Source: a virus. Taken from it: a DNA stretch of 64,000 nt. Below, in pieces: positions 54,221 to 56,491 of the stretch. The stretch spans positions 1 to 64,000 of the IMG/VR virus record IMGVR_UViG_3300025102_007089; one strand, 5' to 3'. The notes beneath the pieces are model-generated. The model had not been told where the DNA came from, ran no database searches, and worked only from the letters and a program-made list of their open reading frames with translations. The position numbers were made by a program, and so were the translations under genes. The number at the start of each line of letters is the position of its first letter. Within the stretch, counting starts at the first letter, position 1.

Positions 54221-54258
54221 TTTTACTGTAAATATTTATAGATTTAATAAATAATTAT

Positions 54259-54789
54259 ATGTCTAAACAACACAGAAATTTCGGTAAAGATATTCACCAA
54301 CTAAACGAGACGTACAACGAGATGTTGAACGGAGCGCATATGTTTCAAAATACAGGTAATCCTCAAGCTGCAGCTGATAGTATGAAGGAAGAAGATAGAC
54401 CATTTTCTCCTAGTCACGGTGCACAAGATAAGATTCCATTTGAAGATAACGAAGATGATAAAGGTATTGATCATCTTAAGCATGCTTTAAAGATGCTCGG
54501 TAAGGCTAAGCTTATGAAGCATCTCGAAGAGATGGAAGAGGATATCGAAGATGAAGAGTTTAATTTTAAAGGTGGTGATATTGAACACGACTGAGCTTCT
54601 CACATTAAACATCCTCAGTTTGGGGAGTCAGTCAAGAAAGTCCTTCACCATAGCTTAACTTCAGCAGGCGTTATTGAAGAATATTATGTTGAACATAACG
54701 GTAAATTAGCAAAAGTACTTGCTGAAGAAGTTACAGTAGTTCAATTAAATGAGCATGGTGGTAGCGGTAAGAAGAAGAAAAAGAAATAG
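54259..54789 (+). CDS. Late protein with in-frame UGA (54592-54594); candidate 176-aa selenoprotein
   Basis: The frame stays open for 64 codons after the TGA (ASHIKHPQFGESVKKVLHHSLTSAGVIEEYYVEHNGKLAKVLAEEVTVVQLNEHGGSGKKKKKK*) with no ATG/GTG/TTG; SECIS-like hairpin; ATAAATA 5 nt upstream of the ATG. Confidence 0.72.
54595..54641 (+). promoter_or_regulatory. Candidate bacterial-type SECIS element
   Basis: AC(A)UCCUCA-GUU-UGGGGAGU hairpin at 54609-54628, bulge at +17, loop G at +24 after the UGA; weak lower stem UUCU/AGAA. Confidence 0.6.
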
Positions 54790-54822: not shown

Positions 54823-55401
54823 ATGGCTAAAGAAAAGAAGTTTGTAAAGCTCTTTGAAAATTATATGCGTAGATTTGAACGCGGCGGCTTTTTAGTAGGC
54901 GACGTTTTTAAGTTTAATGATGACTTTAAGAGTCATGACGCATATAAAGGTTTAGGAGATAACATTAAAGAGCTTATAGATGACATGATTGAATCAGGTC
55001 TTCATATTAGAGTTGTTAATATAAAAGATACAGACCCAGCTCGTTATCCTTCAAATGATCAAACTTCTTCTCTTAAAACAGTTTTAGACATAGCCTTAGA
55101 TACCGGTGGAGGTCGTTTTTCTCATTATTGTTCTGTACCCTGTGGGTTAGGTCAACCTGTTCAATATGCTCCAAATTTATTACCTATTCCTGACGCTATG
55201 AGACGTAAGGATAATGTTAATATTAAACCTGAAGAAGCAGAAGAGGATAAAGATAATATTCAAAATAAGACAGACAGGGGTAATGGTGAGCTGAGTAATA
55301 CTGAAAGATCTTTACCTAAGGACAATACCCAAATTCCATCACAGCCAGCTACCCCATCTCAAGAAGTAAATTCTTATACTAAGCAGTATATCCCTAGTTA
55401 G
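54823..55401 (+). CDS. Hypothetical late protein
   Basis: MAKEKKFVKLFE start; ATAAATA 5 nt upstream. Confidence 0.65.
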   Translation: MAKEKKFVKLFENYMRRFERGGFLVGDVFKFNDDFKSHDAYKGLGDNIKELIDDMIESGLHIRVVNIKDTDPARYPSNDQTSSLKTVLDIALDTGGGRFSHYCSVPCGLGQPVQYAPNLLPIPDAMRRKDNVNIKPEEAEEDKDNIQNKTDRGNGELSNTERSLPKDNTQIPSQPATPSQEVNSYTKQYIPS

Positions 55402-56491
55402 ACCAGTTAGAGGTAACTCTAGCTACTCCCCATGGTAGATTATTAACTACAGCATAATTAAAGAGTAATTCTGGACCTCCTGTCCCTTCTCTAGTTGCTA
55501 AGACATTCCAGCCAGTGAATGTATCATAATACTCAGATGTATAGCTTATACCGGCTTTACCAGGCCATGTAATTACAAAATAGAGATTATTTAGATTTTG
55601 CCCAAATCCCCATTCAAGCATATTGTTGACCATAGCTGCTGGAGGTTCATTAGGATCAGTCGCTTTTTTAATTCTCTTAAATCCCGCAGGAGGCCAGGTA
55701 GTTATTATGCGCTGCGCCGGTAGCATATTGTTTGTAACAGACCATTTAGGAGCTTGTAAAAAGATAGCAGAAGATGATATTAACGTATAGCTATGATCTG
55801 TATTACCATCGCCTACCTTCTTCCACCCTTCAGTTAAAGGAGGAAATTGTTGCTTTAAAGTATAATAATATCCTTCCCATTTGCCTTCTCTTTGTATCCA
55901 AAATATATCACCCCTCGACTCATCTCCTTTTAACAGACCAGGTGAACTACTAATGTTAGCTTCAGCAAATGAAATCGGCACAGGTGTTCCTCTGTTTATA
56001 AGAGTCCAACTCTTATTTGAAATAATATTATTGTTTGCTCTATTTACGAAGCCTCCTATAGCTAATCCCCAATCTTCATTTCTTTTTGATTCATAAAAGA
56101 ATCCTCGTTTTACCATTGTTCCAGAGACGTCTTGGTCGCCATAACCTACAGCTCTCCAACCTCGAGTTATAGGAGGAAATACATCTCCTCCCGGACTCCA
56201 AAAAATTTGTAACCATGTACCGTCTTCATTTGGCACCCATATAATGTCAGCATTTGCTGGGTTAGTATTACCTAGTACATAAGCAGCAGAAGATGGTCCA
56301 AATATTTTACCTATTGATCTAGATACACTTCCATTAGGATTGACTGATGTGTTAAGGCCTATAAGTGTTAAAGAGTTAGCTCTTATTCTCTCAACTTCAA
56401 AACCTGATAAGTTAGAGACAGTCTGGGCTCCTAAAGGGGATACTATTGCTAATAATAATATTAAGAGCCTTATTAATAATAAAGGCTTCAT
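55394..56491 (-). CDS. Secreted protein resembling Verrucomicrobia TIGR02597-type surface proteins
   Basis: Signal peptide; internal repeat (AD/GD)I.W......W...(F/Y)....FPP(I/L)T.GW..VG.G..D; C-terminal ITWPGKAGISYTSEY. Confidence 0.55.
   Translation of the reverse strand: MKPLLLIRLLILLLAIVSPLGAQTVSNLSGFEVERIRANSLTLIGLNTSVNPNGSVSRSIGKIFGPSSAAYVLGNTNPANADIIWVPNEDGTWLQIFWSPGGDVFPPITRGWRAVGYGDQDVSGTMVKRGFFYESKRNEDWGLAIGGFVNRANNNIISNKSWTLINRGTPVPISFAEANISSSPGLLKGDESRGDIFWIQREGKWEGYYYTLKQQFPPLTEGWKKVGDGNTDHSYTLISSSAIFLQAPKWSVTNNMLPAQRIITTWPPAGFKRIKKATDPNEPPAAMVNNMLEWGFGQNLNNLYFVITWPGKAGISYTSEYYDTFTGWNVLATREGTGGPELLFNYAVVNNLPWGVARVTSNWSN

What the first reader, a model, noticed from the sequence alone, without database searches (positions are those of the whole stretch)
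54259..54789. Candidate phage-encoded selenoprotein: in-frame UGA plus SECIS-like hairpin in a late gene
Seen: the predicted ORF stops at TGA 54592-54594 (...DIEHD*), but the same frame runs 64 more codons to TAG 54787-54789. The extension has no ATG/GTG/TTG start and fills one of the few gaps in a tightly packed genome. Read through, it gives HD-U-ASHIKHPQFGE..VLHHSL...G.IEEY.V...EH..KKKK. A hairpin AC(A)UCCUCA-GUU-UGGGGAGU follows, with a bulge at +17 and loop GU at +24/25, built from GC-rich codons (CAG, GGG, GAG) that stand out in this AT-rich genome. Established: the E. coli fdhF SECIS has bulged U17 and loop G23/U24, and bacterial SECIS elements lie directly 3' of the UGA. Recalled but unverified: marine T4-like phages have a His/Cys domain of the form HxCA..V.H..(W/F)GEG, with Cys at the UGA position. 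Inference: the phage uses host SelA/B/C/D to place Sec in a probable metal-binding module of a late protein that may be capsid-packaged (it follows an acidic EDIEDEE tract). UGA is an ordinary stop elsewhere in the window, so this would be site-specific recoding.
Basis: partly seen in the sequence, partly recalled or inferred. Interest (0 to 1): 0.93.

Follow-up and report, generated by a model that had tools for sequence, protein, structure and literature searches.

The report
Probable selenocysteine gene in ocean phages
A small late gene of this uncultured marine T4-like phage has an internal UGA "stop" that all 100 related phage sequences examined keep where more distant relatives have cysteine, always followed by an RNA hairpin of the bacterial selenocysteine-insertion type. 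It therefore most likely encodes a selenoprotein, which I found reported for no virus of bacteria.

Summary
ORF 54259-54594 ends at TGA 54592-54594, and the same frame runs 64 more codons to TAG 54787-54789.

The TGA is neither an error nor a recent mutation:
- All 100 related loci fetched as DNA carry TGA at this codon. They fall into five subfamilies, 39-68% identical to the window's domain.
- Contigs from three independent runs agree.
- The 49 codons after the TGA are under purifying selection (dN/dS 0.15).

More distant homologues all have Cys there (H-x-C-A-x-H-V), so this is a classic Sec/Cys pair. The "W" in database proteins comes from gene callers using code 4.

A hairpin with a G-U loop follows every TGA and no Cys form. 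In 59 distinct sequences the seven codons forming it show no synonymous change. Across subfamilies the stem sequence changes but still pairs. It fits the published bacterial SECIS consensus.

TGA is an ordinary stop elsewhere (19 of 91 ORFs). One subfamily also uses it as the gene's own terminator.

Neither this phage fragment nor a 93%-complete relative encodes tRNA-Sec, SelA, SelB or SelD, so decoding must rely on an unidentified host.

The domain is an SH3-like barrel with invariant His-x-Sec/Cys, His and His. Its function is unknown.

This scan has flagged other phage selenocysteine candidates on other DNA, but none from this family.

The parts
54246..54253 (+). AATAAATA box 5 nt before the start codon, resembling the T4 late promoter TATAAATA
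   Evidence: Read in the sequence. The distant relative L005 has TATAAATA at the same place. Late expression is inferred, not shown.
54259..54591 (+). Codons 1-111: variable, acidic N-terminal part ending in the conserved KGGDIEHD
   Evidence: This part differs in length and sequence among subfamilies (23-111 codons before the UGA).
54592..54594 (+). In-frame UGA, proposed selenocysteine codon 112
   Evidence: TGA in 100 of 100 related loci. Cys in distant homologues. Unchanged in contigs of three independent DNA runs.
54609..54628 (+). SECIS-like hairpin: 5' arm 54609-54617 (bulged A at 54611), loop GUU 54618-54620, 3' arm 54621-54628
   Evidence: Seven codons show no synonymous variation in the main group. 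Synonymous-randomised versions reach the observed stem in 0.97% of trials for the window. Absent from Cys homologues.
54595..54786 (+). Codons 113-176: the conserved domain after the UGA, ending in a GGSGKKKKKK tail
   Evidence: dN/dS 0.15 against L005 and L018, with synonymous sites near saturation. This is the most conserved part of the family.
54586..54756 (+). Predicted five-stranded SH3-like beta-barrel (residues 110-166) with invariant H110, U112, A113, H131, G137 and H166
   Evidence: AlphaFold2 on alignment A5: mean pLDDT 77, core blocks 79-92. Invariant columns. Only generic SH3/KOW/Tudor matches.
54787..54789 (+). TAG, the true stop of the full-length product

Best explanation
Gene 54259-54789 encodes one 176-residue protein in which UGA-112 is read as selenocysteine. 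The hairpin that starts 15 nt after the UGA acts as a bacterial-type SECIS. The infected host's SelB, carrying Sec-tRNA(Sec), binds its G-U loop and delivers selenocysteine to the ribosome in competition with release factor 2. Every other UGA of the phage has no such hairpin and terminates. The phage supplies only the cis signals. The tRNA, SelA, SelB and SelD come from the host.

The Sec sits at the start of the first strand of a small SH3-like barrel, in an H-x-U-A motif beside two further invariant histidines. This suggests a metal or redox centre in a late, possibly virion-associated protein.

Shown here: the conserved UGA, the Sec/Cys pairing, coding past the UGA, a hairpin under selection at the RNA level, and site-specific rather than genome-wide recoding. 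Inferred: SelB dependence, selenium incorporation, the host, the metal site and the function.
For: 1. The TGA is conserved. All 100 related loci read as DNA have it. They come from marine viral and metagenome contigs and form five subfamilies 39-68% identical to the window's domain. No change at 54592-54594 was listed in contigs of three independent runs.
2. Translation continues past the TGA. dN/dS is 0.15 over the 49 codons after it, with pS 0.60-0.65. The residues on both sides (H-D | A-S-H-I) are the best conserved in the family. Upstream parts of only 23-45 codons in some subfamilies make a stand-alone N-terminal product implausible.
3. There is a Sec/Cys pair. In proteins from two database searches, the site is C in 19 motifs, all in divergent homologues, and W in at least 107. 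No other residue occurs. The W-type subfamilies I could read as DNA are TGA and never TGG. The Cys forms use TGT in phage contigs L094-L100.
4. The hairpin is selected as RNA.
 - In 59 distinct main-group sequences, codons +6 to +12 (GCT CCT CCG TTT GGG GAG TCA) have zero synonymous variation. Only one other degenerate column among about 50 is invariant.
 - CCG, GGG and GAG are minority codons in this genome, at 0.10, 0.09 and 0.27.
 - There are twelve hairpin types with different stems: GCUCCUC/GGGGAGU, UCCUCA/UGGGGA, CACCCA/UGGGUG, CAUCCA/UGGGUG, GC(G/A)CC/GGUGC and GUCCUC/GAGGGC. All pair, and all have G-U or G-G-U in a 3-5 nt loop starting at position 21-27.
 - Synonymous-randomised controls reach the observed stem in 0.03-5% of trials for four of the five subfamilies.
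 - Cys homologues have no such hairpin.
5. The hairpins fit the published bSECIS consensus on loop size, stem length, G in the first two loop positions followed by G or U, and 16-37 nt spacing (PMC13188914).
6. The recoding is site-specific. 19 of 91 ORFs end in TGA, many at ATGA overlaps. Subfamily D ends the same gene with KKKKK-TGA.
7. The phage has no alternative decoder. There is no tRNA in the 80.6-kb record. The 93%-complete relative G001 has only tRNA-Leu(UAA), Met and Arg(UCU).
Against: - There is no direct evidence of selenium incorporation.
- The host is unknown, so the presence of selA/B/C/D could not be checked. Neither G000 (38% complete) nor G001 carries them.
- The window's own hairpin is weak when folded alone (-6.2 to -6.6 kcal/mol against the consensus limit of -7.5). 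It reaches -8.2 only in a 60-nt fold.
- MFE z-scores against codon-randomised sequences are modest one by one (-1.2 to -2.9).
- In subfamily C the peptide A-P-V-G-A itself encodes the hairpin, so the randomisation test says nothing there.
- The P..G peptide motif contributes part of the pairing everywhere.
- The hairpin lacks the E. coli-type bulged U and 11-nt spacing.
- There is no redox motif such as UxxC.
- An RNA-seq run that holds neighbouring genes does not cover this gene, so expression is not shown.
Confidence: 0.74

Rival explanations
1. Programmed stop-codon read-through with a standard amino acid. The hairpin slows termination, and a near-cognate tRNA (Trp, or Cys/Arg) reads UGA. 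This would give a set ratio of a short and a full-length product, without selenium.
For: A conserved UGA with a downstream structure is also the signature of read-through signals. No host Sec machinery could be shown. The window's own hairpin is weak.
Against: - The aligned residue in all sense-codon homologues is Cys, next to invariant His residues. Trp or Arg there would be a radical change.
- TGG is one transition away yet was never seen in 100 loci.
- The short product would be only 23-45 residues in some subfamilies.
- The loop always keeps the G-U or G-G-U that the SECIS consensus requires, which a mere roadblock would not need.
Confidence: 0.15
2. The UGA is a true stop. The upstream ORF and the downstream conserved domain are made as two separate products, the second by re-initiation or a non-canonical start.
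For: Gene callers split the gene this way. In subfamilies B and D an in-frame TTG lies inside the hairpin, and databases hold such truncated calls (P0011, P0020).
Against: - The window and the main group have no ATG/GTG/TTG after the UGA.
- Conservation runs across the UGA (H-D | A-S-H), in the same register as the continuous H-x-C-A-x-H of the Cys forms.
- The frame is the same on both sides in 100 of 100 loci.
Confidence: 0.05
3. Artefact or decay: an assembly error, a recent nonsense mutation (pseudogene), or a host with a reassigned code (TGA = Trp or Gly).
For: Database translations show W at the site. The genome is AT-rich, like code-4 organisms.
Against: - TGA is present in 100 independent loci and in contigs of three runs from three studies.
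- Purifying selection acts downstream.
- TGA ends 19 of 91 ORFs, including ATGA overlaps and the same gene in subfamily D.
- There is no suppressor tRNA.
Confidence: 0.02

Closest known systems
Bacterial selenoprotein genes with an in-ORF SECIS read by SelB (prototype E. coli fdhF; consensus model in PMC13188914, E. coli details in PMC8659212)
   Same: An in-frame UGA is followed closely by a stem-loop inside the coding sequence. The small apical loop has G followed by G or U (subfamilies B and C have the loop GGUC). Spacing is 17-23 nt. Homologues have Cys at the same site. Other UGAs in the genome terminate.
   Different: The gene is carried by a virus of bacteria that has no sel genes of its own. 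There is no E. coli-type bulged U17 or 11-nt spacing: the main group has no bulge, and the window has a bulged A at position 20. The protein family is unknown, with no Pfam or PHROG match. Its motif is H-x-U-A, not a thiol-redox UxxC/CxxU.
Poxvirus glutathione peroxidase selenoproteins (molluscum contagiosum, fowlpox; PMC8310308, PMC1802603)
   Same: A virus encodes a selenoprotein and depends on the host's Sec machinery. The fowlpox SECIS also lies in the coding region.
   Different: Those are eukaryotic viruses with captured cellular GPx genes and eukaryotic-type SECIS elements. This is a phage-specific protein family with a bacterial-type hairpin directly after the UGA.
Cys-form phage homologues of the same domain (H-x-C-A-[TS]-H-V-x-H..[WF]GEG...H...[WY]YDV; loci L094-L100, proteins P0016, P0024-P0034, P0040)
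   Same: The same predicted barrel and the same invariant His/Cys/His/His columns. Lys-rich tails follow the domain. They occur in phage contigs, sometimes as tandem repeats or inside 350-760-residue charged proteins.
   Different: They use TGT at the site and lack the GU-loop hairpin. They are only 25-37% identical to the window's domain.
Phages with genome-wide stop-codon reassignment (TGA = Trp or TAG = Gln, often with suppressor tRNAs; from my own knowledge of the literature)
   Same: An in-frame stop codon in a late gene that standard gene callers truncate.
   Different: There is a single recoded codon in 80.6 kb. TGA is a normal stop in 19 ORFs, and no suppressor tRNA was found.

Membership tests
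Bacterial-type selenoprotein gene (in-ORF SECIS) | In-frame UGA conserved among orthologues | tested here: met
   TGA in 100 of 100 loci from five subfamilies, and in contigs of three independent runs.
Bacterial-type selenoprotein gene (in-ORF SECIS) | Cys-containing homologues align Cys with the UGA (Sec/Cys pair), with conserved flanks | tested here: met
   H-x-C-A-x-H in 19 motifs of divergent homologues. No residue other than C, or W (the code-4 reading of TGA), occurs at the site.
Bacterial-type selenoprotein gene (in-ORF SECIS) | The frame after the UGA is translated | tested here: met
   dN/dS 0.15 over 49 codons. Abundant synonymous variation at conserved residues. This is evolutionary evidence only; no protein data.
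Bacterial-type selenoprotein gene (in-ORF SECIS) | bSECIS (i): apical loop of 3-9 nt and upper stem of 4-16 bp | tested here: met
   Loops of 3-5 nt and stems of 4-8 bp in all 12 hairpin types. Consensus from PMC13188914.
Bacterial-type selenoprotein gene (in-ORF SECIS) | bSECIS (ii): G in the first two loop positions, usually followed by G or U | tested here: met
   Loops are GUU, CGUUU, UGUUU, AGUU, AGUUC and GGUC.
Bacterial-type selenoprotein gene (in-ORF SECIS) | bSECIS (iii): 16-37 nt between the UGA and the apical loop | tested here: met
   The loop starts at position 21-27 (U of UGA = 1), so the spacing is 17-23 nt.
Bacterial-type selenoprotein gene (in-ORF SECIS) | bSECIS (iv): MFE of -7.5 kcal/mol or lower | tested here: inconclusive
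   Main group -9.2, B -9.0, C -8.1 to -9.9. The window type is -6.2 to -6.6 and D is -6.4 for the hairpin segment alone. The window reaches -8.2 in a 60-nt fold.
Bacterial-type selenoprotein gene (in-ORF SECIS) | The structure is maintained by selection (covariation or suppressed synonymous change) | tested here: met
   Seven consecutive codons have zero synonymous variation. Stems differ between subfamilies but still pair. Randomisation gives p of 0.0003-0.05 in four of five subfamilies.
Bacterial-type selenoprotein gene (in-ORF SECIS) | tRNA-Sec, SelA, SelB and SelD available in the translating cell | not testable with these tools
   The host is unknown. Genome-collection scans found no linked genome. 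The phage records G000 and G001 carry none of these genes.
Bacterial-type selenoprotein gene (in-ORF SECIS) | Selenium is incorporated at the UGA | not testable with these tools
   Needs 75Se labelling or mass spectrometry.
E. coli fdhF-type SECIS specifically | Minimal hairpin at nt 15-31, bulged U17, loop G23-U24, 11 nt from the UGA (PMC8659212) | tested here: not met
   The window has its hairpin at 18-37, a bulged A20 and loop G27-U28. The main group has no bulge. It works like a SECIS but is not the E. coli variant.
Stop-codon-reassigned phage genome | Many in-frame TGAs across genes, and a suppressor tRNA | tested here: not met
   One such site in 91 ORFs. TGA ends 19 ORFs. No tRNA with anticodon UCA.
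T4-type head-internal proteins | N-terminal capsid-targeting sequence (MKTYQEFIAE-like, from memory) with a prohead-protease site | tested here: inconclusive
   Subfamily D and some Cys forms start MKT[FY].EF. The window's copy starts MSKQHRNFGKDI. No virion data.

The most novel reading that the evidence does not exclude
A whole clade of abundant ocean T4-like phages makes a genuine selenoprotein by borrowing the host's SelB and tRNA-Sec. The Sec is one ligand of a His3-Sec metal or redox centre in a late, possibly head-packaged protein. Phage fitness would then be tied to the host's selenium trait. The phage SECIS variants (GUU, AGUU and GGUC loops) could report which SelB, and so which host lineage, each phage uses.
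Probability: 0.4. Interest if true: 0.9.

Novelty: new variant of a known kind. Interest (0 to 1): 0.86.

Why it matters
In the papers I could search, the only viral selenoproteins described are two poxvirus glutathione peroxidases (PMC8310308). A 2026 review of prokaryotic selenoproteomes and a 2026 bacterial selenoprotein database do not mention phages at all. The GOS marine selenoproteome data set lacks this family.

If the reading is right:
- Selenocysteine decoding is a host resource that phages exploit.
- The hosts of this widespread marine phage group must be Sec users. That would exclude SAR11, which a preprint reports to lack selC, and gives a new handle for host prediction.
- The family would be a new Sec-containing fold whose Sec sits among histidines rather than in a thiol-redox motif.

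Practically, public protein sets hold over a hundred copies of this gene that are either cut in two or translated with Trp.

Tried and rejected
- No match to the gene or its DNA in the cultured-phage collection. The phage's polymerase and gp6-like protein are only about 30-33% identical to cyanophage proteins.
- No Pfam or PHROG family for the protein or its homologues. No sequence relative of solved structure.
- No Rfam match around the UGA. In-ORF bacterial SECIS elements are poorly represented there.
- Fold searches gave only generic SH3/KOW/Tudor barrels (Foldseek E of 0.07 or more; VIA Z of 4.8 or less), so they give no function.
- Host search: two genome-contig scans found nothing.
- A neighbouring 365-residue secreted protein resembles clusters that are mostly Verrucomicrobiota (0.91). 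This is a lead only.
- An Actinomarina host (universal sel genes according to a preprint) is a guess from the shared low G+C, which I recall from memory.
- Two subfamily queries found no viral contigs.
- Whole-segment MFE against codon-randomised controls was only weakly significant per sequence. The loop-anchored stem test and the synonymous-variation profile were more informative.
- The metatranscriptome run X20 covered neighbouring genes but not this one, so it says nothing about expression.
- A joint 51968>55061 seen in two runs has only 25 nt on one side and was disregarded.
- I initially read the W in homologues as a real Trp. The DNA overturned this.

Full report
**Observation.** The window encodes an ORF from ATG 54259 that stops at TGA 54592-54594 after ...KGGDIEHD. 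The same frame stays open for 64 more codons (ASHIKHPQFGES...EEYYVEHNGKL...GGSGKKKKKK) to TAG 54787-54789, with no ATG, GTG or TTG in between. The hairpin AC(A)UCCUCA-GUU-UGGGGAGU is at 54609-54628.

The window is part of an 80,613-nt virus record (32% G+C, CheckV completeness 38%). It carries T4-like replication and baseplate genes. These are only about 30-33% identical to those of any cultured phage, the nearest being marine cyanophages. Of 91 long ORFs, 60 end in TAA, 19 in TGA and 12 in TAG. Many TGA stops sit in ATGA start-stop overlaps. Only the TGA at 54592 has a long extension that fills a gap.

**A false lead, then the key result.** The read-through product found database proteins of 174-175 residues that were 94-96% identical and had W at the UGA column. 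The DNA says otherwise. Four close IMG/VR relatives and two distant ones (45% identity, different N-terminus) all carry TGA at that codon, surrounded by synonymous differences. The W comes from gene callers that chose code 4 for short AT-rich contigs.

A metagenome scan added 80 marine loci, all with TGA. Further subfamilies reached through the representative-protein search also have TGA. They read IQHD-u-ATHIKHPSLGE, IQH[RQH]-u-AKTIAHPGLGEEDEEF and EHN-u-ATHVAPVGAE. In all, 100 loci read as DNA carry TGA and none carries TGG, TGT or TGC. Contigs from three independent sequencing runs in three studies cover the site with no change listed there. An assembly error or a recent nonsense mutation is excluded.

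**Translation past the UGA.**
- Between the window and L005 or L018, the 49 codons after the UGA have dN/dS of 0.15, with synonymous sites near saturation.
- The strongest conservation in the whole protein lies immediately on both sides of the UGA and in the following domain.
- In some subfamilies only 23-45 codons precede the UGA, so the functional product must include the downstream part.

**Sec/Cys pair.** More distant homologues, found with a profile search of 1.84 billion representatives and a second search of 5.8 billion proteins, all have Cys at the aligned column. Examples are KHDCATHV, EHMCAKHV, KHSCASHV and DHNCAVVV. In total there are 19 Cys motifs, at least 107 W (that is, TGA) motifs, and no other residue. 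The Cys forms lie in phage contigs and use TGT.

Alignment A5 shows the invariant columns H14, U/C16, A17, H35, G41 and H70 of the 80-residue domain. These correspond to H110, U112, A113, H131, G137 and H166 of the full protein.

**The hairpin.**
- Every TGA locus has a hairpin whose 3-5 nt loop begins 21-27 nt from the U of UGA and contains G-U or G-G-U.
- In 59 distinct main-group sequences, the seven codons that form it (GCT CCT CCG TTT GGG GAG TCA) show no synonymous variation. Only one of about 50 other degenerate columns is invariant.
- Three of these codons are minority codons in this genome.
- Between subfamilies the stem sequence changes but pairing is kept: GCUCCUC/GGGGAGU, UCCUCA/UGGGGA, CACCCA/UGGGUG, CAUCCA/UGGGUG, GC(G/A)CC/GGUGC and GUCCUC/GAGGGC. 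The Gly and Glu codon choices (GGG/GAG against GGU/GAA) co-vary with the upstream His/Ala-Pro codons.
- Versions that keep the protein but redraw codons from the phage's usage reach the observed stem in 0.03-5% of trials for four of the five subfamilies. The test is uninformative for subfamily C, where the peptide APVGA itself encodes the stem.
- Cys homologues have no such hairpin, and their MFE z-scores are about 0, against -1.2 to -2.9 for TGA forms.
- The hairpins meet criteria (i)-(iii) of the published bacterial SECIS consensus (PMC13188914). The energy criterion is met by most types but only marginally by the window's own variant.
- They are not the E. coli fdhF variant, which has a bulged U17, G23-U24 and 11-nt spacing (PMC8659212).

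**Site-specific recoding that depends on the host.** Subfamily D ends the very same gene with KKKKK-TGA. No tRNA is encoded in the 80.6-kb record. A 93%-complete 196.9-kb relative has only tRNA-Leu(UAA), Met and Arg(UCU), with no tRNA-Sec above threshold. Neither record has selA, selB or selD.

The host could not be identified. A preprint reports that 135 complete Pelagibacter genomes lack selC, while all 84 complete Actinomarina genomes have selA/B/C/D. The reading therefore predicts a Sec-using host rather than SAR11. A Verrucomicrobiota-like neighbouring gene is a weak alternative lead.

**The protein.** AlphaFold2 with the family alignment gives a five-stranded small barrel (mean pLDDT 77, core blocks 79-92). 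It matches only generic SH3/KOW/Tudor folds. No Pfam, PHROG or PDB sequence relative exists. The invariant H-x-U/C plus two His suggests a metal or redox centre, but this is inference.

The gene follows an AATAAATA box like a T4 late promoter. In relatives it sits in the same neighbourhood, beside gp6- and gp25-like baseplate genes and three conserved unknown ORFs. Some relatives begin MKT[FY].EF, which recalls the T4 capsid-targeting sequence (from memory), so packaging in the head is possible but untested.

**Rivals.**
- Read-through with Trp or another standard residue is the main alternative (0.15). It does not explain why the sense-codon homologues are always Cys, why TGG never appears, or why the loop keeps the SECIS G-U.
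- Two separate products (0.05) conflicts with the missing start codons and with the conservation that runs across the UGA.
- Artefact, pseudogene or a reassigned code (0.02) is contradicted directly.

**Novelty.** The searchable literature describes viral selenoproteins only in two poxviruses. It does not mention phages in recent prokaryotic selenoproteome reviews or databases. The GOS selenoproteome data set does not include this family. Earlier notes of this scan report other candidate phage selenoprotein families on other genomes, but none matches this family by sequence. The decoding mechanism itself is known. What is new is a virus of bacteria using it, and the protein family.

Noticed in passing
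public protein sets (P0002-P0153); window 54259-54789: At least 107 database proteins of this family carry W at the site. Others are truncated calls that start after the UGA. Every subfamily read as DNA has TGA, so the gene appears to be mistranslated (code 4) or split throughout public databases.
   Followed up: partly
L005:5049-5474, L018:1478-2122, L025, L054, L064, L102-L106: Relatives carry extra C-terminal modules that the window's copy lacks. These are long acidic tracts ending in a conserved tail HG[AVE][RK]PKL.G[VI]..[LY][RK], or ...PKLNCRSVHSL. The window's copy ends in GGSGKKKKKK.
   Followed up: no
L088:4001-4267, L091, L093, L092; Cys forms L096, L097: These N-termini read MKT[FY].EF..DL, reminiscent of the T4 capsid-targeting sequence (from memory). 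This hints that the family consists of head-internal, injected proteins. The window's copy starts MSKQHRNFGKDI.
   Followed up: no
L107:2454-3958 and L108:2460-3963: A cluster of tRNA-Leu(UAA), tRNA-Met(CAU) and tRNA-Arg(UCU) lies just upstream of the UGA-containing gene in a 196.9-kb, 93%-complete relative.
   Followed up: partly
window 55394-56491 (-): This 365-residue protein resembles ESM Atlas clusters whose known members are mostly Verrucomicrobiota (score 0.91). A genome scan found no close cellular relative. It is a possible host clue.
   Followed up: partly
window 54760-54786: The length of the Lys tail differs between strains. Close relatives have 3- to 9-nt deletions, and one run has insertions at 54763-54767.
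   Followed up: no
P0016, P0025, P0026, P0028, P0031, P0032, P0040: Cys-form homologues often carry two tandem copies of the H-x-C-A domain, each followed by a Lys-rich linker, inside larger charged proteins. P0040 has a sub-threshold Pfam hit to the PcrA/UvrD Tudor domain (E = 2e-4).
   Followed up: no
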